Part shown: piece after piece, positions 3,501 to 64,000 of the stretch
Numbering within the stretch: the first letter of the stretch is position 1
How the letters are laid out: each line of letters begins with the position of its first letter
Origin: Laetmonice hystrix
Taxonomy: Eukaryota
Direction: 5' to 3'
Length of the DNA: 64,000 nucleotides
Assembly (NCBI GenBank): GCA_965235115.1
Contig: OZ249436.1
Coordinates: 30,630,001 to 30,694,000, forward strand
The notes under the pieces: generated by a model
The model's database searches: none
Told to the model about the DNA's origin: nothing
Seen by the model: only the letters and a program-made list of their open reading frames with translations
Position numbers and translations under genes: made by a program

Positions 3501-6500
3501 CCGAGGACGGTACCCCGCCCATGTAAGTGGCAGTGTAAACGTGTCACACAGGGTACCGGGCCCAGTCAACTTGTTTGAGACGGTAGGCCTACTGGACATG
3601 CGCGCAATTCGGTCCGGTCCGAGCACGGTCCACCTGAAGTGGACCGTAAAAGTGGAAGCTATTCTCTAACACGCGGATTTTTCTATCGCGCGGATTTTTC
3701 TAACGCGCGGATTTTTCTAACGCGCGGATTTTTCTAACGCGCGGATTTCTCTAACACGCGGATTTTTCTATCGCGCGGATTTTTCTAACGCGCGGATTTC
3801 TCTAACACGCGGATTTTAACACGCGGATTTTTCTATCGCGCGGATTTTTCTAACGCGCGGATTTCTCTAACACGCGGATTTTTCTAACACGCGGAAATGT
3901 CGCGGTTATTCCCTAACACGTAATGATACCTATGGGCCACCATAATATTCAGATATGCAAGCTTACATCCTGGCAGTTCGAAATGCGGTACTGGAGCACG
4001 TTTATACGTTGGTTGACGCCATGTTGCTGCATGCATCTTGGCATCACACAGCAGGTGATGCTGTCTTCGATTTGTATAATAAGGTATTCCCCCAAGGCAG
4101 GTGCCAGGAACTTTCAAATTACTTGTGACATGTGCTGCAACATTATACGGCGGCTATAGACAGATCCCACGATTTCCTCTTTCGTTGTGATATATGAAGA
4201 GTTTTTATAGACATGGACCTGTATCATTGATTCTCATGTTAGTCAAACTGATCTCTGCGATGTTGGGCCACTTCCTATACCACAAAAGGTAAACACAATA
4301 CAACAGAGCAAAGCTCTTTAAAGGGATTCTCACCCGCGAGATGAGTCTTCATATTTATGCTCACCTCCTGACCGCTCACGTAGGCCTAAATATGCCACTG
4401 AATGTTTTTTTTCATATTGGTTCTGTTAACACATTCTATGAGAAGACAGCTGTAAAATTATCCCTGATGGTGGATAGATTACAAAAACTAGCAATCACGA
4501 TGAATTCCGCCGTTTTGGCATGTCGCCAATCGTTTGAACGTTGTGTTGTTGTGGTGTAGAGCACAGAGGTCTTCGGTAACAGTCCCCAACTAATGTAGTT
4601 CCAGAATTCGTCAAAAGAATATCCGTGACTTTACCGAGAATAATGCTGACAATACTCGAAATCTATTTTCGTTAGGACAAATCGAATATCTAAATTGCAA
4701 ATATTGACAGAAGAGCTTCTGCTTTGCACCGACCATAATTTGCATAGCCCTGCGCACAGAAATATCAAAAATAACTTCCGGGGTCTCGAAAGCAAAGTAG
4801 GTCATTTTCAGTGACTGAAATAAGATTTGGCGACTTTTAGAAGTTATTTACATAATATCCGCCAAGCCCACATAGAAAGTTGGGGAGATTTGGATCATAT
4901 CGGAGAACCGCAATGAAAACATATTTTTTTGTACGTACGACTTGAAATTTGTGAGATACTCTCTTTAAGACATGCCTAAAGATTGATCATTTACACATCC
5001 GTCATGTAGCTCAGGTTACGTTTGATATGGTTTCTGGTGTGGGCAGTGTCCACTTTAATATCTACCAAATGATGTGCATGTTCATGGATGTATTTCGGCA
5101 AGTTTTTAATGGGTGTTATACCAACATGAGATGTCCACCAACAAACGTGATCCCTTGTATAGATCGGTGTCCCGCATGCGACCCGAGGCATAGCACCTTG
5201 AATTACCACTTTTTCATCCTATACACATTACTATAGATATAAGTACTGCAACATGGGAAGACTGGAGAGACATCAACGTTCAGTTTGAAATAACATCTTA
5301 ACAATTTCTCGATATCAACATGTAGGCCTACAGTTGGTGAAAAGTTGTTTATATGCAGACAACACCTAAAACAATTGGTCAATCGACTGCACTAAATTTT
5401 CACTCGGCCGGATCAGAGACCACACGGCTCACGTCAGGGAATGGTCGTGCCGTCACGGGTAAGAATAAATATATAGGCTATTATCGCTCGGGTGTGATCA
5501 GGTCCAGTCCATAGCGTTATAGGGAGCGTAAAGTCTCGCGACCGAAAACGAGGTTCGGCCTAACTAGGTCAGACCGCTGGCGACATACAACTTCCGTTAC
5601 GTCACAATTCTCCACTGCTTTAACATAGGGCGAGCGTAGACCTCTCCAAACATCGGCCTTTCTTTTGACAATTAAATATTTCTTAAGTATGAAGTGTATT
5701 TTTTCTAACATAAGAGATGTTGGTTGTGATGTATAGTAAGTTTGATAACAAAGAGAACAGTAATTGTGGAGTTATCAGTTAGAACGTTTTTTCAATGGGC
5801 CTTCCAATGCTAAATGAACGGAACCGGAATTTGGCTGGCGCCAATTTGGGCCTCCAAACCGCATTTCTCGTCGATTCACGCATTGTGACGTGACATATAC
5901 TTACGGTCCCTATAGAAGGGAAGGACCTTATCACCGTTATGATTGTTGGTATTCTAAAACGTTCTTGCGATATTGTACCTGAACCGAAGAAGAATAGTAA
6001 ACCATCGTCAACACAGCAACCAAGTTATCGTTACGAACGTTTTGGAATACCAACAATCATAACGGTGACAACCTACGCCCGGACTATTTGGCCACAGGAT
6101 GACTTGTGCCGACCACACCACCCTTTTATGTCTCTCGAATTTCTACACTTTTACTATCAGAGTCTATTTCTCTAAAGCAAAGTAAACCGGAAATGGCTCT
6201 GTCGTTCAGAGCTGGGGACCAGGCTACCAACTGGGCATTACATCCGAGGTTATTTCCAACCTGACGGAAACACACGGATATGGCCGCGGGTTCCCGAATG
6301 GGGCTGACAGAGACCATGTGACTTTCATGGTGGTCGAGGGGGCGGAGCAAGGCAGAGGTTTAATCTCCCTGGTAAAAGTGCTTGGTTAAGCAGATGAAAG
6401 AAATAAGTTCCTAATGATACGAACCCCTCGGAACAGTCCCCTGACGTTTTTTTGGGCTGCCTGTTGCCCTTCCGTCCTGCTGAACACCCTTATATTGAGG

Positions 6501-9500
6501 GGGCCTCGGGTGGCCGAGTGGTCTAAAGGTGTCGGCTCCATCATGACACCTAGGACCATCGCCTCACACCGCTGCGACCCGGGTTCGATTCCCGGCCTGG
6601 GCTGCATGTGTGAAAGGTTTGTCAGTCAGTTCCTTCCCGAAGGTCGGTGGTTTCCTCCGGGTACTCCGGTTTCCTCCACCAAGAAAAACTGACTTTCATC
6701 TCATCTTCACCGCCGTGATATGACCCTGGCTGTTGCAAGGCGTAAAACCCCAAATACCCACCCACCCTTATATTGATAGTTTGAACTTTTCTATTCCCTT
6801 TAAGTGGCAGGACGTGCTCTCTACGGACGTACGTAATGCCTGACATGTGCTCAAGTGTCTGCGAGGTCCGAGACTGATTAGTCGAAATGAGACAATGTCA
6901 TGTCAAAGTTTTAACGTCTTACGAAATAGAGCATCTCATAGAAGTAGTTCTGATATATTTATGGTGGTTTTGATAAAGACTACCTTCCACAAATATATTA
7001 TTTCTAAAATCTTCGGTAGGCAGTGTGTCCTTCATCAATGCTATGATGTAAAATTATAAATTGGCAGAAATGAGGACCAGAAATACATGATTGGAGTCCG
7101 TGAGATAGGTCTCCGAGACCTTGCATCACTCGCCAAGCCGATCTGATGGCTCAAGTTTAAAGTGATACAAACATCACAACTAACATGAAATTTTGGACCA
7201 GATCCTGATAATACTTATAATTTGTCGTTGTTCTGTAATGGCGTGAACTGTCTGTAATCCGGGATCAAAATGACCGTGCACACGTCACTTCCGGTTTTCG
7301 GTCAAGAGCAGTCGGAAACGAGACTGCGATGTGGCGCGTGATTCAAATTTTCAATATTTTTACAAATGTTACTTTCTGGGAGAAAAACCTATCCCGGACA
7401 CGTCTGCAACTCACAGTGATCTATCTAGATCAGTAAAGGTGCCTATGTGATGTCTGTAGCACTTTAATCCCTGCCACAGGCGGCGCATGCTCTCCGAAGT
7501 CACCGCGATAGGGCCAAACAGGGGTCATTTACTGCATGGATAACGGACAATATACGAACATTTAATATGGGATTGACATACATACGCTGTCTCTATACTC
7601 TTCAGACCATGTTAGTACTTTTTTCTATCCCTTTCTAGGAATCTTTTGGTCAGTAAAGAGTTTTTGTTACTGATCAGACGGTTCATCGCCCGATGAATTT
7701 CACTGGATGTTAAAGTGAATGCCAGGTCCATAACCAGCCATGAAACGTTCGCTTCATGGCGACAGCACTTCTGACATGTAAAAACTCCGTCACCGTTATA
7801 ACTGAACACAAGATAGTTCGCATAAATCCAGGAATTTGTCTCTTGTATCACTAAGTTGTATTAACCTATTTTGTAGTACGATAGATTTCTATTCTTTCAC
7901 AGTACTTGAATGTGGCAAAGACAACCTTCTTGAATCGAGAAGATTTTGGTTCAACACGTAGGGAACAAAATTTGTAAAAAAAAACAAAAAGAAAAGGTAA
8001 TTGTAGTGGAGGCACTGTAGCTGGAAACATGCAGGAAACGAAAGCCTTCTGCCGGGATATATGCCTAGAAGTCAAATGGTAACAGTTGAAGTGGGAAGAA
8101 CTGTGTAAAATTCATTGAGAAGGAAGCCTGACTGTACGTCACTACACGCGAACTAAACTTGATTGTCGCCTTTCAATGCCCCGTATAGGCTCATCTGTTC
8201 GAACAAAGGGCCTGATCTCTCCTCATAACAATACACCACTCTGCTTTGTTTCTGAAACAATCCCCCCTTTAAGAATTATAGCCTTTCATTCGTGTGAGAA
8301 TGAAGATTCGATGGTGCGTGTCTGGTTCTGAACAGTTGCAATAATTACGAAACATGAAACCTCCACAACAAACCCATTCATTGCAACGTTTTAAGTAACA
8401 TGGTGAGCTTCGAAATGGTATCAGGAGTTATCGCCAAACCTGAAAGACTTGCAACTTTTATATTTCAGGGAATGTTACTACTGCCACGCCCTCCACCGTC
8501 CCAGACCTTGATGCGTCGTCATGTCAGGATCGCTGTGTCGAGAAGTACTTCCCGGGAAAGGTGTGCTACTGCAACAGCGCCTGTAATAATTATGAAAACT
8601 GCTGTTATGATTTCTATAGAGAATGCCAACGTAAGTCTTTATTTTGGCCCTTTTTTTGAGAGAGAGAGGGAGATTCTTTTATTTACGAGTGAAAAATGGT
8701 ACAGGTGTTCGTTAGAGATGAAGAAGTTCTTGTAAGAACTTATGTACATCCTGGGTAACATGCACGTTATAACATATAATTTGGCTCCACTAGCCATAAA
8801 CAAAGCAATAATAGATAGATAACTCAATTTAAAGGGTAATGTTCACGTACAGGACCTTACAAACATGATATAGTATTTACTTTTATACATGAACACATAA
8901 TGAGGATGAGGAGAATGAGTGCAAAGTTGTCATAACTATGTGTCAAACTTACATGGGAGTTACATTTGTTTACATGGTTCCAAATAGTGTCAGGGAAGTG
9001 TACATAAAATATATAGGCACAATATAGATACATACAAGTAGTATAAGGATAAGTCGTGCAGATAAGTCTTAGAAGGAGAGGTTTTAGCTACTTGTAAAAT
9101 GCAGGTCCTGTACTTATATGTTTATTAATGTTGGGGTGATATGAGACAATATGGAATAAGAAGGTACATAATCAGTTAATACATTGTAGTTTTAAATTGT
9201 CTATCAGTCCTTTTTTAACATGTTTAAAACTATGTATTGAAGTATTTAATGCAATTTTGCCATCTTTCATGAGTTTGTTGAAAATTGTGGGGCCTTGGGT
9301 AAATATAGATTTTTCCAGTACTTTCCCTCCGATAGCCAGTAGGTTATAGTGCTCTGATTGTCTTCTCATGCAAGAATATTTTTTATACCCTCGATAAAAG
9401 ACGAGGCACCCAATACAGGCAATTTACATCTATGGTTTCTAAAGGATGGCTTGACCCTCAATCGATGAAGGCGAATTTCTTCTTTTTCTTTTTTTACCCA

Positions 9501-12500
9501 ATTTCCCGACCCCCGACCCCCCATTTCTTTCTTTCTTTGCCAACTTATTCCACCCTACCATATAGGCATAGAGCCTAAAACACTTCTGTAAAAAAGAAAT
9601 AAACAATGACCGACTACGGCTTATGCATCCTGACAAAAAGAGTTTTTGAATACTTGGTTTTATAACAGCTGATCGTGTTTGGGGAGACTCGTGGGTAGAC
9701 TACAACGACCATTCCTATCGATATTTTGAGGATAACACGGCTACCTCAGTGATAGCCTCCAAACAATGCTACCAGCAGGGCGGCATGCTGGTCAGCATCA
9801 ATGACCAGGGCGAGCTCGACTTTCTCATCACGGACGTCATCAAAAAACGCACAATGAGCGTCTTTATTGGCGCCAAAAACCAACCTCCTGGTGAGTATAC
9901 AACGGCTGCATTTGAATACACTACAGCTCCTTCAGATGTACAGTGGGTGTGGGCTGACGGAGCCCGTGTGACTTTCAGATGTACAGTGGGTGTGGGCTGA
10001 CGGAGGCTGTGTAACTTTCAGATGTACAATGGGTGTGGGCTGACGGAGCCCGTGTGACTTTCAGATGTACAGTGGGTGTAGACAGACGGAGGCTGTGTAA
10101 CTTTCAGATGTACAGTGGGTGTGGGCTGACGGAGCCCGTGTGACTTTCAGATGTATAGTGGGTGTGGGCTGACGGAGGCTGTGTAACTTTCAGATGTACA
10201 TGGGTGTGGACAGACGGAGGCTGTGTAACTTTCAGATGTACAGTGGGTGTGGGCTGACGGAGCCCGTGTGACTTTCAGATGTACAGTGGGTGTGGGCTGA
10301 CGGAGACCGTGTAACTTTCAGATGTACAGTGGGTGTGGGCTGACGGAGGCTGTGTAATTTTCAGATGTACAGTGGGTGTGGGCTGACGGAGGCTGTGTAA
10401 CTTTCAGATGTACAATGGGTGTGGGCTGACGTAGACCGTGTGACTTTCAGATGTACAATGGGTGTGGGCTGACGGATCCCGTGTGACTTTCAGATGTACA
10501 GTGGGTGTGGGCTGACGGAGGCTGTGTAACTTTCAGATGTACAGTGGGTGTGGGCTGACGGAGGCCGTATGCCGCTACCTTCGTCCTCCGGTTGGCACGT
10601 CTGGTACTCCGGGGAACCAGACAGCAACACGGGTCTCGAGACGTGTGCTCTCCTCACCAACTACAAGTTCTGGGCAGTCCGCAAAGTTTCTTTCGGTTCC
10701 TACTTCTGGGTCGATTTTCGCTGTGATTCTAACGGCAAACAGGTGCAAGGATACATCTGTGAACGTAAGTCAGGATGGATTGTTTTGTAAGCTTTATTAC
10801 AAAAGCTACAATATAATGCAGTTCACAGCAATGCGTCTTGGTGCTACTCTACTATTGTTACGGGTCTGTACGAATTGCTTATCGTACATCTTCACATGAT
10901 TTAATGTACAGTATACTATGAATTGGATTTGCAGGGACACTAGAGTGTGAACCTAACCCCTGCCAGAACAATGGAACGTGCCGATATGTTGGAGGAGAAC
11001 GGGAATATCTTTGTGAATGCCCCCAAGGTTTCGTTGGAACTAACTGCGAAATACAGTGTATGTGTACTTTTGTTTGATGAGACGCCTTGCGTTTGGACAC
11101 TTCATGATTGCCTAATAATACGATTGTGTATGCCGGACTGGTAATACGTCATAATGTCAACACAATATATTGTAATCTGAATCTGCCGAGCGATAAACAT
11201 GCAAACCAATCAAAAAGTCCCTTTTTGGTTCTATTCAATTGTACTTCATACCAACAAAAAGATGGTCTATGTTGCATGGAATTATAAGCGATACAGAGAT
11301 GAACTATAATGCTGTGTTTTGGATGGCCTGTAGTGATTGATGGCGAGCTGTGGACACGGTGCGGGGAGACTAGCCTCTTGGGCCCGCAGGGGCAGCTCAC
11401 CTCCCCGCTCTACCCGGAGTTCTACCCTCCCAACGTCCGCTGTGTGTGGACCGTCACTGTCAGCGACGGGAATACCATCTCACTAAGGTCAGTGGCCGCA
11501 GAGCACTCTGGGGCCCATTTCACTAACGGGGAGTGTCCCTGGGGACATCCTGGCGACATTCCCTTATCACTGTTCCAGTGGAGGAGAGACATTTTAGTGG
11601 AATACTTTGAGTGGGGATGTCCCCAAATCGAGGTGTCGCGGGGATGTCATTGTTAGTGAAATGGGCCCCTGAGTCGGAGGTGGGATGTCATATAAATATG
11701 ACCAGTTACAGTTTTTTATACCCCCATATCTGCCCTATTAATCCTTGTGAGTGTATGGATGTATTATTTTCGAAGGAATTCTTACTACCTCTCAAACGTA
11801 GGCTCATCCGTGTGAAAAGTCTCACGGTCCTCTCTGCCATTTTGTTTTCTAGGTTTCTCGACAAGGAAATAGAGTCTGGGAAGGATTGCGCTTTTGATTC
11901 AATACGGGTGTTTGACGGTCCCGACACCAATGGTTCGCTGCTCTTAGAACCGGTTTGTGGCTCCAATAGCCCCCAGCTCGAGTTAGTACCAATTGTTTAT
12001 ATTGTGCCGACCCTGACTATAAGCTTCGATCGACAGTCTCTGTGATGTACAGTGTCTGGTTGTGTTTTTGCCTTGAATCAGTGTCCTTTCTTAGTCCAGG
12101 ATGTTGCTTATTGCCTTTATCGTGAGACTAAGAGACATTGTGGCTTGCGCCAGGCAAATGGGTTTAAAGCAATCACCGAGTATCTCTCATTTCAATGACT
12201 TCAAAATGCAGACATGGACTGTAAGGTTAGATAAAGCCTTAGACTACCTAAATCAATAAATTTTTACCCAAAACAATGGAGAAATCTAATAAAATTCAAC
12301 ATTCCAGTTGCATATTGTCGCCATGAAGCGAACGTCTCATGGATGGTTGTTGACCTGGCATTGACTTAGACAGCCAATGCAATTCATCGGGCGATGAACC
12401 AACTTCTAATGAGTTTGTTCCATTGATCTATGCTCTGCATCTTATGGGGAGATCTGTAACTCCCGGGGAAAGAGAGCCGAGACCGCAGTGAAGTAGCAAA

Positions 12501-12776
12501 TGTAGGGGGGTCAGCATCAGTTGCCAGTCGAACCCGGAACAGATATGTCGATTTGCTCACCCTGCTGCTAGACCTTGAAGGGCTCCTGTAGACCAGTTGC
12601 GCCTCTTCTCTTGGCAGATCTAGCCTGGAAATTACTTAGACGCTACATTTGTCCAGGCGGGTGTTGGCATCGGGTTACTCTGTCGTCCCATCAGATTTGG
12701 TGAATCTCTCCAGCAGGCTATAGCTAGTTGTCTCATCAGGCTCCATACACTCTGCTTCTCCTTTCTGCTCCTCTAT

Positions 12777-12818
<42 letters not shown>

Positions 12819-15800
12819 CTCCTCTTCCCCGAATTCTAAGCCTGCAGCAAGTCTTAAAGAGGGGCTGCAGCCAATACGAATGGTGACCAATAGAAGTCAT
12901 CCCTGGCCCTGGCAGTAATAAAGGTGGCCAACGGAACAGTTTAGCCCTCCACATGATCACACCCATGCAAGAACGGTCTGGATGCTACCATAGAGTTGGA
13001 GCACCCCATGAGCATTGCGGCTTCATGTTAAAAGAAAGCATTTTAAATGCGAAATATGTTTCAGTATCTTTACCTAAATTGCCATACCGCCCCCTTTTTT
13101 TTTATAGATTTCGTAGTAAACATACTCGATCGCTTGATGAAGCCCTTTATCTCAGATCATGAAATAAAATTATTAGTGCATACACATGGAAATACATTAT
13201 GTACACTTTTTGTTCTTCTACTCAGGAAGCCTATTCCCTCATACAGCAATGTGGTGACAATTGCTTTTCACTCCGATTCTACAATACAACTCCGTGGCTT
13301 TCACCTTACCTACACAGAGGATAGTATGTACAAAGTTTGAGTCTGAGAACCGGTTTTCAGAATTAGTTGTCGAAGTTTTAATTATCGTAATTATACAGGA
13401 AGGAATCACACCCTGTCGCCTTGGCGTTATTGCAGAGTGTGGTCGTGGCTCTGGGTCGTCAGGTTGTGGCACAGGGCGCCACCTTGAGGCATCATGTGGA
13501 ACCGTTGAGGTTTTGTCCGGGCCAGTGGATGGGGAGACGGCTTGTTACTGGGAGATAGTTCTTCCTGCTAACCACATCGTCAATCTAACTTTTACAGAGT
13601 TCTGGATTGAAGATACAGGTAAGAATCTCCAAGACACTTGTCCAAGGCAACACAGGTAGATCTATATTGGCCAGAAACCTTGGTATAAATGGAATATGCC
13701 TAGCAGAAACTCTTCGAGTTATACGGCCCTCATTCCATTGATATTGTTCTAGACATTGGTTGTCAGAACGGGTCGTTGACGGTTCATGACGGTGGTAGTG
13801 AGGAGGCTATGGTGATTGAGCGATACTGTGGCCGACGGTTCCCATGGTCTCTCACCTCGTCAGGACCCACCCTGTACATCGTGCTGACCGGCCTGGACTG
13901 GCAGCTAGGGCAACACGTCATCAAGATGGAATATCAGTCAATTGGTAGGTGATCTAGGCTAGGTTCTTAAAGTGCTACAGACATCACATTATCTTAGGCA
14001 CCTTTGCTGATCTAGATAGATCACTGTGAGTTGTATACGTGTCCGGGATAGGTATTTCTGATCAATTCTCAGAAAGTAACATTTGAACAATTTGAATCAC
14101 GCCCTGCCCGTGATGACGTCAGCGGGCTCTGGAGGGCAGGCGGCTGGCAGACAGAGGCTGGGAGAATTGGTCACTTTGATCACGGATTACAGACAGTTCC
14201 CGTTGTTGTACAACAACCGTTCCTTTACAGAACAACGACAAATTACAAGTATTATCGGGATCTGGTACAAAATGTCATGTTAATTCTGATGTCTGTACCA
14301 CTTTAAGAACTTGAGATTTTGGTTAAGCATCAACTCGTTGCATCAGAACAGCCAATTAGAAGCGTTAAGCCTGAGCTGAAACAGTATCTTAAGTTCTTAA
14401 GAACTGGGTGCAGATAATCAAACCAACCTTGCATTTAATGACCCAGGCATATTCATAATGGCCTTGCATTAAAAATTACTTCATATATCCAGATTCCAGC
14501 GAGGTGAAGATAACAAGGCCGCAAACCGTAGTTGAAGGTCACCTGGGTGCATTTTCCTCACAGACGGCACCAGTTTACTTGGAGACGTCCACTCAGTTAG
14601 TTTACAGGTGGCTGGTTCGAGTTCCCGTAGGCGATTTTGTCACTTTACAGTGGAAATCCATTGTACAAGAGGGATCCAGCCTTCAGGTATGTACGGAAAG
14701 TCGATGTTTCACATCTCACATTGCGACATCGTTAGGCTGCTCTAATAGCCAGGTTAAAAAAACATTTTATACTTGTGGCAACTCTCAAAATGAAACCATT
14801 CATAGAAAGGCTCAATGATGACTGAATTGAAAACTGTAGGGGTGAAAATATAGTGGGTCAACGTTGCTCCAGCGGTGGTTTCCCTTATTGCAGGTGTTTG
14901 ACGGTTGCTGTGAGGAGTCAGTACCGTTGGTAGCCGTACTCCTCAACACCAGGGATAGGGACGGCGTCGTTCAAGGCTCCAGTTTCCAGGTTCTCGTTCT
15001 CGTCACCAGACAGAAGGTCGATGTCAACTTTCTGTTTAACGCCACATATGTTTCCAGAGGTTAGCATCTGCCTGGAGAGGAGCGTGATCCCTTCTTTCCG
15101 CCAACAATCGCTGAGTCTCATTGAGACCCACGGTCATCGGTTACATTGGGAAAGCCGTAGTACGGTTGCCGAAAAGTACAAGCTCCTTACGCTGGCGGAT
15201 TTTACGCCTACGCTAAACATTGCTCTGCTTAGCTCGCTAGTATGTTTACTGAATAGTAGTCGTGGTTGATTTCTCCACTAACCTGCAAACTTCGCTTACT
15301 TTTCGGTCACCGTAGCTTATGGACTGCTACCAAATGATTTGAAGCCTGTGGTAACGTACGTACCCCCAGCCCCAAGTATGCCTAGTTTGAAGTTGCGCAA
15401 AATACCAAAGTACAGAACAGGCGAGAAAGATTTCTGGCCATTGGAACCATTGCATGCCTTTGAAGGTTCTCAATTGTGCTGTATCCATGAATGAACCTTA
15501 GATCCCAAACAAGAGTTTATGATTTCTATTATGCCCGGATACTTCTAACCCCTACCCCACCACACAATTAGACACGGACAATTGGACCATTACTTATATT
15601 GCCGGTTTTTAAGGTTGGACATCGGAGTTATCGGGCTGCTATCGGCCGCTGTATACATCGCGTGTTGACAGTGCTGCCACAGAGAACAGTTTGGTGTCAC
15701 CCACGCGCCCCCTGGTGATCAAGGCTACAAAGGATTCACATGGCGCCATCGAGTCGGGATATCAGCCTGGTATGGAAAAGGTGCCATAATTATGGCATAA

Positions 15801-18787
15801 TCACTTAAGACACAGGAGCCAGGGGGGTGAAGGGGGCCTTGCCCAACCCAAACTTACATACCGTATATAGTATGTATTTAGCTTGGCTGCCGGATCCCCC
15901 CCCCCAAGGTTGACGCAATTTTCGTCCCCCCCCCCCCCCCAAGGTTGACGCAATTTTCGTCACGCTGGACTATCGCTGACATTCCAGACTAACCAACATC
16001 ATTCGTGAAAACGAACCGTCCGACGAACATTACAGAGGTGTAGGAAGGGGAAAAAATACTCCCTGTTATTTTATAAATAGCTTGGTTGTTTTGTTATTTG
16101 TTGTGTTTCCAGGCACGTATTGTAAGTGGACGATGCGAGGAGAGCCCGGCTCATCGCTCGTGTTGGTCTTCTCCGAACTCGTCCTTCCCCGACACGGCAC
16201 GACCTGTGACGCCGACGGTGTCGTCGTGTACGGCGCATCGGGCTCTGGGCCCAACAACAACAACAAATATGGTACGGCGGGGCGCAACAGCACCGGAAGC
16301 AAATTTTAATTGAGGGGGGGGGGGGTCATGGTTTCAACACAGATTAGGCCTATCTGTCTTAACAAGCATAGACTCTACATGCGGGATCTGGGCCCGGTTT
16401 CAGAAAGGTTAGCATGATCTTAACTTTAGCTCTGCTTAGCCTTTTAGAAACCCTGATTGGCTGGTTGAAGCTGAGCAGCAGAAGACCAGCCAATCAGGGG
16501 TCCTAAAAGGCTAAGCAGAGCTTAAGTTAAGATCATGCTAACCTTTCTGAAACCGGGCCCAGGAAGCTCTTGTGCCAAAATATATACTTTTGTTACATTA
16601 TTATTATACTTTTATTGCATTATTATATATTTTTGTTACATTATTATATAGGCCTATTTCTGTTACATTATTATATATTTTTGTTACATTATTATATTGT
16701 TTTGTTACATTATAATATATTTTCGTTACATTATAATATATTTTCGTTATATTATTACATATTTTTGTTACATTATAATATATTTTCGTTATATTATTAC
16801 ATATTTTTGTTACATTATTACATATTTTTGTTACATTATTATATATTTTTGTTACATTATTTAGCCCCTACTCCTCGAATCAGACAGACCCTGATAGTCC
16901 CTCACATAGTATGACCCTGAATATAAATGCCTGCACATGCATTTAAGCAATTATAAGTTATCAGTAGTTGTTTATTATTATGTCATATGCAGACCCAGAG
17001 TCTACAAACTATAATATATTAGACAGGTTCTGCCCTATGTATCTCTCTAAATCTGCAGGTCCTTTTTGTGGCTCGTCGAAGGAGGTCCAGTCGACCAGAA
17101 TTAATCTCAATACTGACATGGTGACAGTGGTGCTGTACGCTGACAGTCAGGGTCAGGTCCGGGAAGATGCTGTATTCCGGGCTCTCGTCATGATAGACGG
17201 TTGGTATCATCCCTGAATAACCTAGAACATAATGCCATCAATGGGCCTGTAGAGATACTACTATAATAGAGTCCTAATGAGTAGGCCTTCAACTTAAAGG
17301 CATAATGCCATAAGCAATGCTTCTCCGGCCATGGCATAGGAGTCCAAAGCCAAGGTAGGGAGGTAAGGATGTAAACTGAAGATAATGTTTGGGCATTAAG
17401 ATTGGTTGCTTATATTACAACCAACCAATCAAAAGGCAAAGGCCTAACCACAACCTTGTGAGGCTTATAAATTGATACTCTAGCCTATGTACCTAGTATT
17501 AGGTTCTAAAGTGGACCCAGAAATTATACCGTGGACGACATTGTCCTAGGTCCCTTCCTGGGTTGAAATTAACCTACTTCCGCTGAGTGTCAGAGGACCA
17601 ATTCATTCACGTTAAATCCTCTTGCCTTTTACCAAAAAATCTCCCTACAGCCTCACTGATCCTACTCTGACCAGCTCTGAAATTACAATGATTATGTGGT
17701 TTTGGGGTTGACAGAACAATCTTCCTGTCGGTTGGATGAGATGAGTGTGGAACCGGTGACCGTGCGGATGACGTCAGAGTGTGGCGTCGTCTTGTCACCG
17801 GGCCTGCCGGCAGAGGTCAGGCCGGGCCTCTGGACATGGATGATAGCGCCACCTGTCGGGCATTATTTCAAGGTGTTGCTCTCGTACGTTCAAGGCCCTG
17901 CCATACGCGGGGAATGTTCGTCCTTCTTGCGACGTAAGAAACTCAACCTATCAGTACCTTCTTGACGGGCCGAATTCATAATTACCTGTAGGCCTATATC
18001 TTTCAAAATGTCTGTAAATGATAAAGTCTTTCATCCTAACGTTCCTTGACCCCAATAATATGCTACACACAGGTGGCAGGCCTTTAAAGAGAGATCGAGT
18101 TCTCATTACTGCTTTCATCCTATTATTATATATTATACTTTTCTTACTACAGTGCTGGAAACAGGGAAAAGTTCAGGCAAATTCCGGCACTGGGAAGCAG
18201 ACGTCTTGAAGATATGCCAAGATGCATCTCTGTTCTTGCCAGAAGCATCTATCAATGTACGGTAACTAATATGCAAATTCAAAAAAAGAGTTCGACATCC
18301 TGACTTTTATAATAACTTGTACTTTTAATTTTTGCCTGAATTTAGTCCGAGATATTATGCGCATGCTGTCTGCCAATGTCACTCAATGGGATGTCAAATG
18401 ATAGTCCGTATGGAATGCATGTTCCATACGGACTGATTCATGCGCCAGGCATCTCGTCCCATACTTTTGCACCCTGCAGGACCCTCATCCCGTTACGTGT
18501 TTGTTATTACGAACGTTAATTTGTCCGTATTTTTTCAGTTACCTTATGAACAAAAGCTTGGCGTTGAGTTATCAACGGTGGCCGGGAACCGACCACAGCG
18601 ATGGGAATTCAAACTATCATATTCCTCAGAAAAAATGCATGTCCCAAAAATGTTTGGTAAGATACATGATCAACATTTGGTTTTTAATAGTATTTATTAT
18701 GCCTATCATTTTGATTTCAAATATTTATCATGACTCGTTTCACGATTTTCAGAAGGAACATTGTCATAGTCATCGCGTTTTCTCTTC

Positions 18788-18851
<64 letters not shown>

Positions 18852-21800
18852 AAAAACATTTTTCGTACGGGCCTATCAATATTGGAGATTTGTACAGTAG
18901 GCTATATGCCTCCATGGTCTCCTTCATTGAGACAACTGTAAAGTACATACAATATTTTACAATTACTTTTACTACACATCACCGTCATGATCAAATCACA
19001 ATATAAATTTACGAATTTCTCCAGACGAACGTGGTCGTTGCGGTGAAGATTACGTCTACTATGGCGGCCACTGCTACCGTTACTTTAGCTGGTACCTTAG
19101 ACAAGTCCAGCCCCGTCAACACAAGTACCTAGAGACCTGGCAAAGTGCACGTGACCAATGTCATGCGCAGAACGCTTCTATGTTGAGCATCATGGATGAA
19201 AAAGAGGCGTATTTTGTCAAGGTTAATATGGCCCTGTTCTAGTTATACCCACGTTGTGTTAAATTATGCCACATTATAACTGTTCACATATTTCATGACA
19301 TAGCATGTGCATTGTCCCTCATGCACGTAAACAGTCAAATCTAGGCCTACTCCTCAATGCGACAAAATGATAACGTTTTTGGTTTTTAGTACGCGCTGAG
19401 CACTCGATGGCTGTGGGACCAAGCGGGGACCTGGCAGACAAACCATCGGTTGATCTACCTCGGCCTGCACAACATTTATGGGCCTTACGTGTGGGACAAC
19501 GGAGCCAACATGGCGTAAGAGAAGATGTCTTCTATCAATATAGCTATATGGGTTGACAACAGTTTAGAACTTTCTTGAAGTGTCCTAAGAACGCAATTGA
19601 ATTGGCGAATACTTAATTGGGTTGCCAAAGATTGTGTCTGAGTTAAGCTATAGTAGGTCTAGAGTCACATTTCAATGGGGATCACGGGTCATAGAATCAC
19701 ATGACCTCAGTCTTGACGTAATGGCTACGTCCACCACGAGGTCGATGACTAGAGGCCTACTCCACGCAAACTAACTTGTCCTCTGTTCTAACCTCAGCTA
19801 CACCGACTGGTACCGACCCATGAAACCATGGCAACAGCCCGTAGTTCACCCGGATACACTTGTGACGCACCTGCTGCACCTGCGCAGTGGTCAGCCGAGT
19901 GCCGACCTGGGCAGTCTATGTGTGGTGATGCTTGCCACGTCTCCACACGGCTCTCTAAACTGGGCCAAGGTACCATGTGATTACCCCCTGCACAGGGCCT
20001 CTCTCATCTGTAAAAAACCAGCGGCTACGTCAGGTAAATGAAAGATTCAATTGGCAGGGGTATTGTACTGATTAGAGGGTTATGATCAACAACTTTTAGG
20101 CTAATTATGCTCGACTCTTGTGGGAATTGCTACTGTTGTATTTGTATCATTGTTTGTTTGTCCTTAAATCCCGGCTACTTCATCAAGATTAGACTTCATA
20201 AAGGACATTATGTAGAGTATGATTGACCCAGTCTGGAATTACTAACCCACTTTTTGTAATCTTGTCCGAATTGCAGCGACAAACATTGCAGTCCAAAACG
20301 TCGAAGACCTATCGAAGCCATATCAAAGTCAGTAAGCCGATGGTGAAAGCTGAGTTTATTTTGGTCGTCATGAACCAAGAATTGCTAGAGCTTCGCTTTT
20401 TAGGAATTCACAGGAATTTTCATTACTGTGTCCAAAAGAGGAGGAGAATAAAAGGACGTTAGATCCCTTTCGAGATAATAAAAGAAATAAACTAAAAGAT
20501 AATTATGCATATAGGTTGCTTAATTGGATTTACATTTTGCAATTTGGTAACGTAAATTTGATAACGGTGAGAAATGAATGACATTGTCCTCCTCCTAGCG
20601 TGCCCCAATGGCTGGATCAAGTACAGTGATCATTGCGTCCAGTTACATACTAATTACAAGCGGGTCATTGCCCGGCATGAGGGTCAGAAGGTCAAGGACA
20701 TCACCCAGGATGAGGCTGAGGGCATCTGTCGACGTCACGGCGGACAGCTCGAGTCGTTACCCCGCCAGGTGCCGCCACTGTTGGTCGATCTCATGTATCT
20801 GTGGCGTAGCGATGAAACGATGGGACACATTAGAATAGCACAGAACGGAACGGTTTGTCGGCTCCTAAAGGTAGGCCTAAATAATAATTTTGCAGTCCGA
20901 TAAAACAGAATAATATGATCCGATATGGGATAATATTATTATAAGATTAATTATAACCATTTTTTGTCTTCAGCAATATACAATAACCAATGTCTGCCAA
21001 CTCCATATCGAGGTTACCAACATTTTACCACGTAGGTCTAGCTTTGCTTATAATGATAAAATCTTTGTGTTTTCAATCTGACCCTTACGATACCCTATGT
21101 GTTACCCTACAGGTATTTCGAGTCGATGATTCAGAGAACACTGCGGCCCACAGAATTGATGATACACCATGTCAGACGACGGATCAGTATGGGATATACA
21201 GTGTTCTGTGTAGAACCCAAACAATAGGTAGGCCTAATTGTGCAGTTTTATTACCTGTGATATAATGTGGATCATAATGTTCCTGTATCCGTATCACATC
21301 CTTTAGTGTAATCCCAATCTACTACGGTAAGATTATTTCCATGCGATTCCATGACCCGTAATAGATCATTAGAAATGTGACTTTTTTCTCTCTTTTTTGC
21401 CAACCTTTACTTATAAACGCGTGGAAGAAAAGACAACTTTTCTACTTTTTTTGCCACTTGATTCCTTCTGTGAATATTAATGAATATTTTACTTTCCCCC
21501 TTTAAAACAAAGTGACAAAACAGTCTTGTGGAGATTCTGAATTCAAGTGTGAGGACAACTCTTGCATTGGGGTGGATTTCGTATGCGATGGTAGGAAGGA
21601 CTGTCCAAACAACACTGATGAACGTAACTGCAGTAAGTATTTAATAATGTAAAAACTGCATGCGTTACTTCAGAAGACAATTAAGAAATATAATAAAACA
21701 TGAGAGGTCGGAGTTGTGTAGTTCTATGGCTGGTACATATTTGATGTTTTAAGGTTGTGGAGATGGCATGTTCCGCTGTTCGACCGGGCGCTGTATATCC

Positions 21801-24800
21801 ATGTCCCTTTACTGTGATTTCACCGACAACTGCGGGGACAACTCGGACGAGCGGGCCTGTGGTACGTTAGCAAGCTTCACCTGTCAGGCAGGCCTAAACT
21901 ATGAGAAAGACATTTTGTATACGAAATGCAGCTGTACAGTGGTGTGGCTGCGCAGACATCTGCCAATATTTACAGTAAACATACTGCGTGAGTCATATCT
22001 TTTATGACAATATGCTTTTCTTCTCATCAATGCCATGCCCCAAAATACAGATTGTTTGGGTAATATTTGAAGGGCGTATCAAATCATCTGTACTGATATT
22101 ATGTATAAATTGCAGTAGATAATTGCGTACAGTTCTGCTTCCCTTTAAATGCTAGTTGCCGAGAAGTGCCGACCAGATGAGTTTCAGTGTGACAGCGGTC
22201 AGTGCATTGAGATCGGAATGGCGTGTGACTTTAGGAAAGACTGCAAAGATGGTTCGGACGAGAATCCAGAAACATGTGGTGATATAGCTTTAGATATATA
22301 ACATAAATAGTATTGGTATAATATTAAGTTGCGTGCGGTTTGACTTTAGTGAACAAACGATTTGTAGTTTTTAGTTGAACCGTTCTCCCACATTTACTGC
22401 GTGACTTGTGCTCGATTTTTGCTCCCTCTTCCAAATGAGATTATAAAGTACAAAACAACAGCTTAACTTAATTCCTAAGCCAAAGTTAGAATGATCTCAG
22501 AACCCCAGAGTTCCCTCACTCTCATGGTTTATCGTTGTCTCTCGCCGACCTCCAGAGGGTCAGTGTAAAGGTTTTCAATGCTACTCGGGGCTGTGTGTCC
22601 GGTCTGACCTGAGGCGGGATATTGTGTCTGACTGCCCGGGGCTAGCGCTTGAGGACGAGGCCGAGGATCGCCAAGGTGAGCATTCACGGTCAGATGGTGG
22701 GTCGTATTGAGCAGTGAGGAGTCATGAGAAGAAAAGAGGACTCCAAAAGATGCCAGGGTGCCATGTAGCTCTGCTTGACGACCGGAGATCTATGGAGAAG
22801 CGACGAGATGTATTTTTCACAACTTTAACACATATTAAATATCAAGCAACCCACCCCTAACAATTCCCTTTATTCTACACCTCTTAAATAAATGTGTTCC
22901 ATCTGGTGTGATGCAGACTTGGAGACGATGCGACCAAACACTGGAGTAGTCGAGGACACAGTAGTTACCAACGACACGGTCTATGTTGGCTGTAGTGAAG
23001 GGTGGGACTTCTCACAGTGCCGACCTAATCACCCGAAGTGCTTCCGGAGATCTCAGACCTGCGTCTTTGACCGAGTTCTGGTTGACGCCGGTAGGGGGAC
23101 TGAGGTCCAGTCGGGATGCCGAGATGGATCACACCTGAGGAATACATGCGGTATATATACCGGTGTCTCCTATAAGTGTTCAAGTGGTTATTATAAAGTG
23201 TTCAAGTGGGTTTATGCCTGAAAGGCATTGACATTATAATGGAGGTATAGGTAATACTGAACGGCAAAAAAGGGGGCCTGAATTTAACATCGAAAGGATT
23301 ACGGTTTGGGGGCCGCCGACTAGTCTCGGTTTCCATATCCTTATAATGTACCCAGAAAAGACAGTTTCAAATCACTGGTTTCAGGATCGTTTGAGTGTCC
23401 CGGCATGTTTCACTGTCCGGGCTCTTACTGTGTACCTTACAACCGTGTGTGTGACGGTGTCAACGACTGTCCGTACGGTCGCGATGAACATGCCGGTTGT
23501 CGCAACAATTTCTGTCCAGGTATTTATGGGTTCATCTTTTGACTCGGTGTGCAAGAGACACAATGAAAGAAAAATGCCAACCTTATCTAACAAAGTTGTA
23601 GATACATTATGTATAGGAGGAGGGCATTTATTGCAGGAATGATGCGCTGTAAAGGTCATCTTCATTGTTTACCGCGGGACAAGGTGTGCGATGGCGAAGT
23701 GCACTGCTCGAACTTTGGGGAGGACGAAAAGTATTGTACGAATCAAGGTATAGAAAAATAGGGAGTAAAATTGGTAATGTTAACACTAATGTAGCATGAA
23801 CTGATAATTTTATCAAATGGAATGATATAGAAACCTTTTATGACCTCTGTCTTTTATATATACATGTACATGTATATCCCAATATGCACAAGAGTTCTCT
23901 TTTCTTATGTATACTAATAACGGAAGCTTTATTTTCATTTCTTTTTCAAAGACATAATATGCGGGACCCAGTGTCCATGCGTTGGTAATGTAGCGACCTG
24001 TAGTAATAGGAATATCACAGCTCTGGCCGGGCCAGATTCAGCAAGGACAAGACAACTGCGTGCCATTCTTCTACCCCACAATAACGTGAACATCCTAAAC
24101 GACACTTTCCAAGGTCTACACTGGCTGGGAATTCTTGATTTGAGTTTCAATTCAATAGAAAGGCTGGAGGCAGACGTGTTTAGTGACCTTCAAAATCTTT
24201 TTGATCTGGACTTGAGTCACAATAAGCTCCTGTACGTTGACTCGCGGGTATTACATGGCCTCGTTTCGTTACGCTGGCTTGACCTAACCCATAACCACCT
24301 CGCCCACGTGGACCGTGATACGTTTTCTCCCCTCTCGTCACTCTTACATCTCGTCCTGAACGAGAACCCACTTGATTACGTCACGCAGGACGCGTTCTCC
24401 AGCTTAAAGTCCCTCAGGGAGTTGAATACGGATGCATTCAAGTTCTGCTGCATCGCCAAACAGGTAGAGGTGTGCACCCCTGACGCCGACGAATTCTCTT
24501 CCTGTGAGGACTTGATGGCCAATTTCCCACTCCAAGTCAGTATTTGGATCCTTGGCATGTGTGCCTTTGTGGGAAACTTGTTCGTTGTCATTTGGAGGAC
24601 TCTATCGGAACGTTCGAAAGTCTCGTCGTTCTTCATAATAAACCTTGGAATGGCCGATTTCCTTATGGGGATCTACTTGCTGATTATAGCGTGTGTGGAC
24701 GTGTATTACAGAGGGGAGTACATCGTTCATTCCGACAGGTGGCGCGCGAGTGGTCTGTGTCAGTTGGGGGGCATTCTGGCCATGCTGTCCAGCGAGGTTT

Positions 24801-27800
24801 CTGTCTTCACTTTGTGCGCCATCACTGGAGATAGGCTTTTCACCATCCTGTTCCCGTTTAAGGCAGGGAGCTTCAGGATCAAACAAGCCCGCATGATGGC
24901 AGTCGGAATATGGCTAACGGGCTTCTTTCTCAGCATCCTTCCCACCATGGACGTGACGTACTTTGGAAATGCCTTCTTTGGACGCACAGGCATGTAAAAC
25001 ATTATCTTAACCAAAATTTATATGTTTTTAGTTCGGATAGTAATAAAGTTCGACATTTTTTGTTTCATTTTTGAAGGTGTGTGCTTACCGTTCCATCTAA
25101 GCAAAGAACGACTCCCTGGCTGGGAATATTCCGTCTTCGTTTTTCTGGTTCTGAATTTTGTGGCCTTTCTCTTTGTATTTGTTGGGTGAGTATCGATCAT
25201 TTCTTTTACGTAAAAAACTTATAAGTATGCAAAATAGCAAATACAATATTGCTGACATTTGCATCATTTATTATTTGATTATTTTTCAAAAGAAGAGCGT
25301 CAGATAAAAAAAGATTTGCGGGTAAATCATTGTCTACATGTGCAGCTCGAGATTGCCCTCGTATTATGTCCCTATATGTAACACAGAAAAAGTATCTTAC
25401 CAACTGTATGCTTTAATTCTATGAAGCGTTTATAGATTACAAAAATTATTGCAGTATATACCAATCAATTTACAGGTATGTGACAATATTCATGTCGGTG
25501 CGATCGTCCATACAAGACATGGCGGCCAAGTCCACTGCCACTATGGACGAGTATGCCCTGGCAAAAAAACTCTCAATTATCGTGGCGACCGACTTCATGT
25601 GCTGGGTAGCTATTCTTCTGTCTTGTATTGTCAAAATCAATGCAAGAAAAGTGCTGGGCCAAATGTCCTTTAATATCGTGTTGGATAAAGTACTGTAAAG
25701 TACTGTAAGCCTAACTTATTGAATACTGATAACAAAACATACACCAGTTTAACAAATAAATCACGTCTGAATTTATTTCGTACAGTATACAGTAATTAAT
25801 GTAGCCAACGTGATATTCACATGATTTTTGCGGATAATAACCCCCCCCCCCCCTGCGTTCTAACGAAACTTGCGTTCCTGTGAATGTATCCCGACAGGTA
25901 CCAATCATCTTGATCGGTTTTGCTGCCCTGGGTGGAGCATCCATCCCGCCACAGATGGCCGCCTGGGTGGCTGTGTTCATCCTCCCACTCAACTCAGCCG
26001 TAAATCCTATACTCTACACCCTGTCAGCAATCAACTGTAATAGGTGACTCAACTTCAATCATACTCAACTGATAATACTGCGTGCAGTCGCATGTAATAG
26101 TAGGTCCATACAGAGAAAGGGGTAATCATGTTTGACCTGTCATAAGGTACATTATATACAAATATTGTATAATAAAGCGGTAAGTACCACTAGTCACAAA
26201 GATTTTATCAGCTACCCCATGTTGGCTGACGTAGTACGAACACCTAGCCTTGGTCAGTCATTCCACATGAGGACGGAGCCCGAATGTGGTATGTCTAACC
26301 AAGGCTAGGTATAAATCCGTACTACGTAGGCCTAAAATCAAACATGGGGCAACGATTTTATCACAGTTCCAGTAGCTGTTGTTAAGAAATAGCTAATGAG
26401 AAATCCGTCCGAGGAGGGACATGAAACCACTAATGATCAAGACATTATACTGACACAAGGCAGGCCTACGACTGGCGCAACATCTCCGTCAGGGGGCGCG
26501 TCAGTCTGAGCTCGTGGTTTCAGTTCGTATTGCGGATGTAATCTCGTGTCACGGGCTACGAATCCATATAGCGGGCTCATGGACCAATCTGTTCAATTTT
26601 TTGGTCAGTTCTTCCTCAACAGAAGCTAAACTACGGGCTTGATCCAGGGTTGAAAGTCCCAGCATGGATATTTCCTGTGTATTACCAATCTCTCCCAGGG
26701 TTCACCGCGTGGTGAACCCTGGGAGAGATTGGTGTATTACATGTCTGACGTCACCAGAAGGGCCTGTATCACTGGACAGCCTCATTTTGAGGGACCAACC
26801 ACTGTGATGGATACAATCAGCGTGCAGAGTTCATGAGATGTAAACAAACATGTAAAACATTTCTGTGTAATTATGGGGTTATCAATTTATCACAGTTCCA
26901 GTAACAATGCCGCTTTCTGATTGGTCCAGGCCCACGCGATATGAAGCCGTACTCGGTGACATCGCACCAAACGGGTAGGATGGGCCATCCTATAGTAGTA
27001 GTCGTCGCGCCATCTGCCGGTCAAACAGGTCATTTTTCTATCCTACCGTTTTGGCTGCAGCGCCGATACTGTGACGTCACACTGTGCCTGTGGCCACAGT
27101 GTGACACCAACACTGCCATGCGATGGCAGCAAATGACTGCAAAACTTCAAAAAGGCGTTTTGCCGAATTTAATGACTACATCTAATCTAATGTGAGGACT
27201 GGAACTGTGATAAAATCGTTGCCCCATGTTTGCTTTTACGAAGTACGGAATATAACCTAGCCTTGGTTGGCCATACCACATTCGGGCTTCGCCCTCATGT
27301 GGTATGGCCAACCAAGGCTAGGTTATATTCCGTACTTCGTAAGCAAAAATGAGGTAACTGTTAATACCTACCTTCTTCAGATCCCTTCGGCTTCATGGGA
27401 TAGGGTAGGCTACCTAAAGGTATCGGTATATTTCCGTATTACGTTCTCAGACATGGGGTCACTAATAGTATTGCTTGGCAATCTCGTATCACGGGGTACG
27501 AGTCCATGTTGTGGGCAGATGGACCAATCAGAAACTAGCAGCTACTGGGACTGTGATAAGATCTCGTACAGGTGGTGAGGCAATACTTTTGTTTAGCTCA
27601 TTCTTTCGTTTTATTGCAAATTAGGACAGCCATTCGCAACATGTTACCTCTATTTGACGGGCAGGCCTACAGGATAACATAAAGCGGCAAAGTAATTAGT
27701 TTATAACATTTTTCGTTGTAGGCGCGGGAGACGAGGTGCAGCTTCTTCGATAGGTATGTCGACAAAGATGAGTGCTGTAAGTACGGTGGCTCGGAGGGAC

Positions 27801-63791: not shown

Positions 63792-63980
63792 TACAAATAT
63801 TACCTGCAATGTTCTGTGAATCGTTACAAATATTACCTGCAATATGGCCTGTTGTATGAATCGTTACAAATATTACCTGCAATATGGCCTGTTGTATGAA
63901 TCGTTACAAATATTACCTGCAATATGGCCTGTTGTATGAATCGTGACAAATATTACCTGCAATATGGCCTGTTGTATGAA
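63792..63980. repeat. 40-bp minisatellite at the start of an HMGCR intron
   Basis: TCGTTACAAATATTACCTGCAATATGGCCTGTTGTATGAA, 4 full copies plus a partial one. Confidence 0.95.
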
Positions 63981-64000
63981 TTGTTTATAAAATGGGTTTA

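What the first reader, a model, noticed from the sequence alone, without database searches (positions are those of the whole stretch)
9891..10563. Splice acceptor present 15 times in tandem; only the last copy gives an intact receptor
Seen: inside CTLD1, the acceptor (TTCAG) plus the first ~27-35 nt of the exon (DVQWVWADG) repeats as a 43-bp unit, giving 15 near-identical 3' splice sites (first at 9935, last at 10536). Most units carry a branch-point-like CTGAC ~21 nt before the next AG, supplied by duplicated exon sequence. Because 43 is not a multiple of 3 and a shifted frame reads GGC TGA, any upstream acceptor gives a frameshift or stop, and so a short secreted SMB-half-CTLD product or NMD. 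Inference: either splicing skips 14 decoys, contrary to first-AG scanning, or copy number tunes full-length receptor output, or this allele is largely inactive.
Basis: partly seen in the sequence, partly recalled or inferred. Interest (0 to 1): 0.78.

Follow-up and report, generated by a model that had tools for sequence, protein, structure and literature searches.

The report
Mirage repeat at worm receptor acceptor
A 43-base stretch covering an intron end and the start of the next exon of a receptor gene, likely from an annelid worm, is repeated 15 times in a row, a repeat type already described in lancelets as a "mirage", and the cell likely splices at the last copy and ignores the rest.

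Summary
The array is real: 43 bp x 14.9 at 9931-10568, with 15 TTCAG acceptors, and all 14 upstream ones give premature stops. Contigs from one sample's sequencing runs show both array edges and unit-to-unit joints. The host is an annelid-like GRL101-type receptor gene. With acceptor 10536, its 33 modelled exons give 2022 codons with no internal stop, and 4 of 4 exonic allelic differences are synonymous, so an inactive allele is unlikely. Related ORFs break at the same donor (26 of 34), so the intron is old.

This is an acceptor-side "mirage" minisatellite, known from amphioxus, where splicing stays normal (PMC3087553, PMC3902484). This scan has already noted many such arrays, including in this genome. 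No RNA was available, so use of the last acceptor is inferred, and copy-number tuning is untested. The "violates first-AG scanning" point is overstated.

That is shorter than all 31 other introns of the gene (minimum 87). It is stop-free in frame and carries a coding-like 21-nt duplication, so the array may have rebuilt this intron.

The parts
8469..26048 (+). Host gene as modelled: 33 exons, SMB-CTLD-EGF-CUBs-CTLDs-LDLa-LRR-7TM GRL101-type receptor (5' signal-peptide exon not located)
   Evidence: Pfam hits; hand-built model gives 2022 codons with no internal stop and 42-43% identity to P0002 and P0003
9669..9890 (+). Exon encoding the first half of CTLD1, phase 1 at both ends
9891..9896 (+). 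5' splice donor GTGAGT at the position where related ORFs also break
   Evidence: PWM 8.3 bits; 26 of 34 short hits have the same 6-residue spacing then G
9891..9935 (+). The only non-repeat part of the intron: 45 nt, a multiple of 3, stop-free in the exon frame, with a degenerate 21-nt duplication whose copies encode the same 5 residues
9931..10568 (+). 43-bp minisatellite, 14.9 copies, spanning the intron/exon boundary (6-11 nt intron-like plus 32-37 nt exon-derived)
   Evidence: edges and joints in run contigs
9931..9935 (+). Acceptor no. 1 (TTCAG): edge copy with unique upstream sequence, 45 nt from the donor
9974..10493 (+). Acceptors no. 2-14, each leading to a premature stop if used
10512..10516 (+). 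CTGAC, candidate branch point for the last acceptor (A at -22), derived from duplicated exon sequence
   Evidence: function inferred
10532..10536 (+). Acceptor no. 15, the only TTCAG giving an open frame; its upstream 25 nt are repeat-derived
10537..10764 (+). 228-nt exon encoding the second half of CTLD1
   Evidence: 48% identity to P0003 over this exon; 84% to P0238
10765..10770 (+). Strong downstream donor GTAAGT, proposed to define the exon together with acceptor no. 15
   Evidence: PWM 9.2 bits; role inferred

Best explanation
This is a 43-bp minisatellite built from an intron/exon boundary (an acceptor-side 'mirage') in a GRL101-type receptor gene that is likely from an annelid and likely functional, and splicing likely uses mainly the last copy, with rare use of upstream copies predicted to end in decay. 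Shown: the array, its make-up from the exon start plus a few intron bases, the stop after every upstream acceptor, and an otherwise intact gene. Inferred origin: one tandem duplication across the acceptor of an old intron, then expansion and homogenisation by slippage or unequal exchange. Two unit types, each one change away from the true exon, alternate in the 5' half, and the first copy keeps different upstream sequence. Inferred splicing: the acceptors are about equally strong, so position decides. The last one pairs with the strong donor at 10765 across a normal 228-nt exon and keeps the full exon sequence next to it, while each step upstream adds 43 nt (271-829 nt) and a stop. The array is most likely a tolerated by-product, not a selected switch.
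For: Anatomy matches the mirage description point by point (PMC3087553 passages: intron 3' end plus exon 5' part, AG/GT in units, concerted evolution with edge units excluded). Those authors and PMC3902484 (passages) report normal mRNAs. In human F7 only the exon-nearest of 5-9 identical donors is used (PMC1557585 abstract and Discussion). Gene intact with acceptor 10536: 33 exons, 2022 codons, 32 of 32 AG acceptors, 31 GT and 1 GC donors. 4 of 4 exonic allelic differences seen in run contigs are synonymous third-position changes. The exon is 228 nt with the last acceptor; 30 of 31 internal exons are 272 nt or shorter, while acceptors 1-13 would give 314-829 nt. AGs scoring at least as well as the working acceptor occur 15 times in 11 of the other 31 introns, so ignoring decoys is routine here. 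A related unnamed protein (P0090) shows an independent 5-fold, 20-residue repeat of the preceding exon's start in the same gene family, pointing to a recurrent mutational process. The intron position is old: 26 of 34 short hits break at the same spacing and 0 of 28 motif-bearing ones read on to W-x-W-x-D-G.
Against: No direct transcript evidence. Acceptors 2-14 score as well as or better than no. 15 (5.8-7.9 against 6.0 bits) and most have the same candidate branch point. Acceptor 14 gives a 271-nt exon, still within the gene's range. The introns of this gene are short (median about 280 nt), where pairing across the intron could favour upstream acceptors (recalled knowledge). The F7 Discussion notes that in gamma-globin constructs with duplicated splice sites only the 'proximal' copy was used in two studies, with opposite results in a third. 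Four SNPs are a small sample and show constraint in the recent past, not present output. The PWM rests on 31 sites, one of them misplaced by one base at that stage (19391, corrected to 19390), and the donor scores for 9891 and 10765 were not left out of training.
Confidence: 0.7

Rival explanations
1. The array rebuilt the intron. The ancestral intron had shrunk to a 45-nt in-frame remnant that was mostly retained and translated as a 15-residue loop insertion. The 43-bp expansion broke that frame but supplied length and an exon-derived branch point, so the old donor now splices to the last copy. The array would then be needed, and alleles with few copies would splice differently. This is compatible with the best explanation about present-day splicing and differs in history and dependence.
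For: The unique part is 45 nt against 87-1244 nt for the other 31 introns. It is 3n and stop-free (8 of 32 intron starts are stop-free over the same span), and it is the only 1 of 32 with a repeated peptide of 3 or more residues (5 aa). In its 21-nt duplication 6 of 8 mismatches fall on third codon positions (hypergeometric P 0.003; neutral-duplication simulation P 0.0009; 0 of 100000 shuffles). Acceptor 1 is the weakest. No YTRAY lies in the unique part near acceptor 1, while one lies at -22 in 12 of 14 repeat-derived acceptors. The Paralvinella model P0003 also has an insertion in this loop, of about 40 residues.
Against: The pattern was noticed after the fact. A perfect GTGAGT donor is kept, which is hard to explain if the piece was long exonic, since it would promote in-frame exon skipping. 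Annelid introns can be very short (medians 57 and 66 nt in two species, PMC7854359 passages), so 45 nt may have been spliceable, or intron sequence may have been deleted after the array arose. None of the read-through tails of related ORFs resembles the 15-residue piece. The P0003 insertion may be a gene-prediction artefact. Only 11 of the other 31 acceptors show a YTRAY within 45 nt, so its absence means little.
Confidence: 0.15
2. Copy number tunes receptor output: upstream acceptors are used at appreciable rates, feed NMD, and more copies mean less full-length receptor.
For: 13 acceptors of equal predicted strength, 11 of them with the same candidate branch point; every use gives a stop 208-766 nt before the next junction; amphioxus mirages vary in length between haplotypes.
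Against: Tested mirages and F7 show no such leak. Such arrays recur at many unrelated genes of this genome according to earlier scan notes (not checked by me), which fits a mutational by-product better than gene-specific control. No look-alike stretch was found in other scanned genomes, so there is no sign of conservation.
Confidence: 0.13
3. The allele or gene is largely inactivated: splicing goes to the first usable acceptors (9978 onward) or skips the exon, so little intact receptor is made.
For: Short introns may favour the donor-nearest acceptor; acceptor 2 gives an 88-nt intron, within the gene's range; skipping exon 10537-10764 is in frame.
Against: No stop or frameshift in 33 exons, 4 of 4 synonymous allelic differences. 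Both array edges lie in contigs at full flank depth, and no listed loose end or joint shows an array-free allele (44 and 64 loose ends were not shown, and contigs are unphased). The array is old enough to hold about 10% divergence while the exon copy stayed intact.
Confidence: 0.07
4. The array is an assembly artefact, or its copy number is badly inflated.
For: Only one sample holds the stretch and it may be the source of the assembly; no listed piece spans the array.
Against: Units differ in a structured way; separately assembled contigs of three runs show both edges, go-back-43 joints and raised depth over the unit.
Confidence: 0.02

Closest known systems
Amphioxus 'mirage' minisatellites (Adh3, globins BflGb6/BflGb9, troponin C, PGBD5); PMC3087553 and PMC3902484, passages read; the original Adh3 paper PMC117041 was not held
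   Same: Tandem copies of an intron 3' end plus exon 5' part (as in BflGb6), unit within the reported 10-160 bp range, AG kept in the units, internal homogenisation with a divergent edge copy.
   Different: Host is likely an annelid, not a cephalochordate; 15 copies against 3-6 for BflGb6; only 6-11 nt of each unit are intron-like, so the working branch point must be exon-derived or lie far upstream; the array makes up 601 of 646 intron bases; splicing outcome and length polymorphism are untested here.
Human F7 intron 7 37-bp VNTR (PMC1557585, abstract and Discussion read)
   Same: A minisatellite whose edge unit spans the exon/intron junction, leaving 5-9 identical functional splice sites, of which only the exon-nearest is used.
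   Different: Donor side rather than acceptor side; tested with 50 constructs; mammalian.
Internal tandem repeats at exon-intron boundaries of human paralogs (PMC2812944, passages read) and the Rogers model of intron gain by tandem duplication
   Same: Minisatellites at exon-intron boundaries that can change splicing; an intron largely made of exon-derived repeats.
   Different: The intron position here is old and the unit holds no AGGT proto-splice site, so this is not a new intron position.
GRL101-type LGRs of annelids (P0002 Lamellibrachia, P0003 Paralvinella)
   Same: CUB/CTLD/LDLa/LRR/7TM order; P0003 also has SMB; 42-43% identity over the model.
   Different: Their DNA at this intron could not be fetched; P0002 as annotated begins at the EGF domain; orthology rests on best hits and domain order, not a tree.

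Membership tests
Mirage minisatellite | Head-to-tail minisatellite (units of about 10-160 bp) | tested here: met
   43 bp x 14.9, 90% matches
Mirage minisatellite | Unit spans an exon/intron boundary of the host gene | tested here: met
   Units match the first 32 nt of exon 10537 at 28-31 of 32 positions and end in TTCAG; boundary supported by homology and the model, not by RNA
Mirage minisatellite | Units keep splice signals | tested here: met
   15 of 15 keep TTCAG; scores within the range of real acceptors
Mirage minisatellite | Concerted evolution inside, edge units excluded | tested here: met
   Two alternating unit types share an 11-nt linker that differs at 5-6 positions from the first acceptor's upstream sequence
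Mirage minisatellite | Length instability between alleles or cells | not testable with these tools
   One sample, contigs only
Mirage minisatellite | Regular splicing is not disturbed | not testable with these tools
   No RNA run was available; indirect support only from the intact ORF and synonymous differences
Intron gain by tandem duplication (Rogers model) | Intron absent at this position in relatives | tested here: not met
   26 of 34 short related ORFs break at the same spacing; 0 of 28 read through to W-x-W-x-D-G
Intron gain by tandem duplication (Rogers model) | AGGT proto-splice site within the duplicated unit | tested here: not met
   No AGGT in any of the 15 listed units; no donor/acceptor pair inside the array restores the exon exactly
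Recursive splicing sites | AG directly followed by a GT donor | tested here: not met
   Each TTCAG is followed by AT; donors inside units 1-3 score -2.0 to 4.3 bits
GRL101-type LGR (host gene) | Multiple LDLa repeats, LRRs and a rhodopsin-type 7TM | tested here: met
   Pfam PF00057, PF13855, PF00001; top named hits are annelid and GRL101-like proteins

The most novel reading that the evidence does not exclude
An old intron shrank to a 45-nt in-frame piece that became translated, then a frameshifting minisatellite made of exon sequence rebuilt it. The repeat supplies 93% of the intron, its branch point and its acceptor, so the gene now depends on the array, and contraction to one or two copies would switch the receptor to a different CTLD loop or break it. 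This would be an intron resurrected from its own exon, with a natural allelic series for testing how 3' splice sites are chosen.
Probability: 0.15. Interest if true: 0.6.

Novelty: new member of a known kind. Interest (0 to 1): 0.24.

Why it matters
As it stands it adds one more clean acceptor-side mirage in a probable annelid. My searches found no paper on annelid mirages (open-access library only), but this scan has noted many, several in the same genome, so this locus alone adds little. Its practical value is as a natural test substrate: 14 near-identical branch-point/acceptor modules that differ mainly in position would let one measure how position decides 3' splice-site choice in a short-intron animal, the acceptor-side counterpart of F7. 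If the 45-nt remnant was once coding, the locus would record a route by which exon-derived repeats regenerate a working intron.

Tried and rejected
No whole genome is held for this window, so no genome-wide count of such arrays or intron lengths was possible. No RNA holder listed; this says nothing about expression. A homologue search with the first CTLD1 half among longer proteins gave 0 of 33 candidates; the exon-2 search gave one relative whose ORF starts inside the exon and shows nothing upstream. The metagenome scan gave 1 locus from 78 pattern matches (L001), an unrelated chance match inside a longer ORF. No look-alike stretch in other scanned genomes. RNA structure masking of acceptors: rejected, 9880-10600 folds worse than 20 of 20 shuffles (z +2.64). 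My first idea, that exons 9669 and 10537 were one exon and the intron is new, was rejected as the simple case because related ORFs break at the same donor. Recursive splicing and Rogers-type gain were rejected (no AG|GT). Origin of the 11-nt linker: a break 3-6 nt further into the exon needs 3-5 changes against 5-6 for an all-intron linker, a weak preference only. Literature searches for duplicated-acceptor competition experiments returned nothing useful (listings only), so statements on exon definition, branch-point scanning and the 50-55-nt NMD rule are recalled knowledge. Rows not counted as matching: 6 of 34 short hits lacked the motif-plus-G pattern (P0092, P0098, P0145, P0186, P0207, P0228) and 2 had 5 or 7 residues; the 116 hits of 200 aa or longer were not examined for this. 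No supplements were opened; the alignment of BflGb6 units in PMC3087553 Additional file 4 could refine the comparison.

Full report
Observation. TRF gives 9931-10568, period 43, 14.9 copies, 90% matches. Fifteen TTCAG end at 9935 to 10536, 43 nt apart except one gap of 42, against about one expected per 638 nt. Each upstream unit matches the first 32 nt of the exon at 28-31 positions, and the unit core occurs nowhere else in the window. Splicing donor 9891 to each acceptor in silico gives a stop for 14 of 14 upstream sites, 208-766 nt before the next junction; only 10536 stays open. CTGAC with its A at -22 precedes 12 of 15 acceptors.

Is it real? Three public runs, all one sample and kept as contigs, hold 63-71% of the sampled words. 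Laid on the two flanks, they cross both array edges, show go-back-43 joints and array-type loose ends, and have 5-20 times flank depth over the single unit included. Two haplotypes are visible nearby, and no listed loose end or joint shows an array-free allele, though not all were shown and contigs are unphased. The sample may be the assembly's own source, so this excludes an invented array but does not confirm 15 copies.

Host gene. Pfam finds SMB, C-type lectin, CUB, LDLa, LRR and 7tm_1 along the + strand. The best hits to the LRR-7TM exon are annelid proteins at 52-53% identity, followed by GRL101-like receptors, so the organism is likely an annelid. A hand-built 33-exon model from 8469 to 26048, corrected over, gives 2022 codons without an internal stop and 42-43% identity to P0002 and P0003. 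The four exonic differences seen in run contigs are all synonymous. The signal-peptide exon was not located.

Age of the intron. A search of 1.84 billion representatives gave 150 listed hits, 34 under 200 aa. Most look like single-exon ORFs of this gene from unnamed animals. In 28 of 34 the conserved motif is followed by 5-7 residues and a G, in 26 by exactly six as here, after which the sequences diverge, and 0 of 28 reach W-x-W-x-D-G. This is the pattern of read-through at a phase-1 G|GT donor, so the donor position is ancestral. These ORFs do not give intron lengths.

How it likely works. With a small PWM from the other 31 acceptors (one misplaced by a base at that stage), acceptors 2-15 score 5.8-7.9 bits, the working one 6.0 and the first 1.5; real sites have a leave-one-out median of 5.5. 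Sequence strength therefore cannot pick no. 15, and RNA structure does not help. Position must decide. The last acceptor faces a strong donor across a 228-nt exon, within the gene's range (30 of 31 internal exons are 272 nt or shorter), while acceptors 1-13 would give 314-829 nt. I infer exon definition, with residual mis-splicing removed by NMD; both steps rest on recalled knowledge and are untested here. Against my reading: acceptor 14 is also within range, the introns are short, and duplicated-site experiments cited in PMC1557585 gave conflicting results.

Comparison with what is known. PMC3087553 (passages) describes minisatellite-like duplications of the intron 3' end plus exon 5' part in amphioxus globins and Adh3, named mirages, with length instability, concerted evolution and no interference with regular splicing. 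PMC3902484 (passages) adds troponin C and PGBD5. PMC1557585 (abstract and Discussion) shows that in human F7 only the exon-nearest of 5-9 identical donors is used. PMC2812944 (passages) shows boundary repeats can alter splicing in human paralogs. The four structural features I could test are met; polymorphism and splicing outcome could not be tested. I found the mirage paper before opening the scan's notes. Those notes list many such arrays, eight shown for this genome; I did not check them and do not count them as support. Searches for an annelid case in print found none, within an open-access library.

What is unusual here. The array fills 601 of 646 intron bases. The unique part, 9891-9935, is 45 nt, below the 87-1244 nt of the other 31 introns, though annelid medians of 57 and 66 nt are reported (PMC7854359 passages). 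It is 3n and stop-free in the exon frame, and holds a 21-nt duplication whose copies encode the same five residues, with 6 of 8 mismatches at third positions (P 0.003; simulation 0.0009). None of the other 31 intron starts shows such a peptide repeat. This suggests the piece was once translated and that the array rebuilt a spliceable intron from exon sequence. The pattern was noticed after the fact, the intact donor argues for continuous use, and no relative's DNA could be fetched, so I give it 0.15.

Verdict. Observation confirmed; interpretation partly supported. New member of a known kind. Interest 0.24, carried mostly by the 45-nt remnant and by the locus's use as a splice-choice test case.

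Noticed in passing
protein P0090 (unnamed, ENA), residues 14-98: A related ORF repeats the start of the preceding CTLD1 exon five times at 20-residue spacing, which looks like an independent in-frame 60-nt acceptor mirage in the same gene family in another animal. Its DNA was not seen.
   Followed up: partly
window 24990-25076: Probable GC-AG intron (87 nt) in the 7TM part of the receptor, the shortest intron in the model and the only non-GT donor of 32.
   Followed up: partly
window 2295-3948: Element with long inverted ends, each holding about 14 copies of a 17-bp repeat, and four GTTAGGG repeats inside at 3390-3417; looks like a non-autonomous DNA transposon or foldback element.
   Followed up: no
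window 11490-11680 and 8660-9380: Intronic high-copy interspersed repeats, with summed contig depth up to about 18500 and 4800 against about 50 in unique sequence.
   Followed up: no
window 28450-32837, minus strand: Multi-exon gene that resembles an SLCO/OATP transporter, tail to tail with the receptor (name from recalled motifs, no family search run).
   Followed up: no
window 49217-50164, minus strand: Single 315-aa open frame resembling a TMEM53-type alpha/beta-hydrolase-fold protein (name recalled, not searched).
   Followed up: no
window 16581-16861 and 63810-63985: Other minisatellites (21 bp x 13, inside an intron of the model and away from its ends; 40 bp x 4.4, context not examined).
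   Followed up: no
protein P0003, residues about 151-195: The Paralvinella model carries an insertion of about 40 residues in the same CTLD1 loop where this intron lies; it may be a prediction artefact or a real extra piece.
   Followed up: partly
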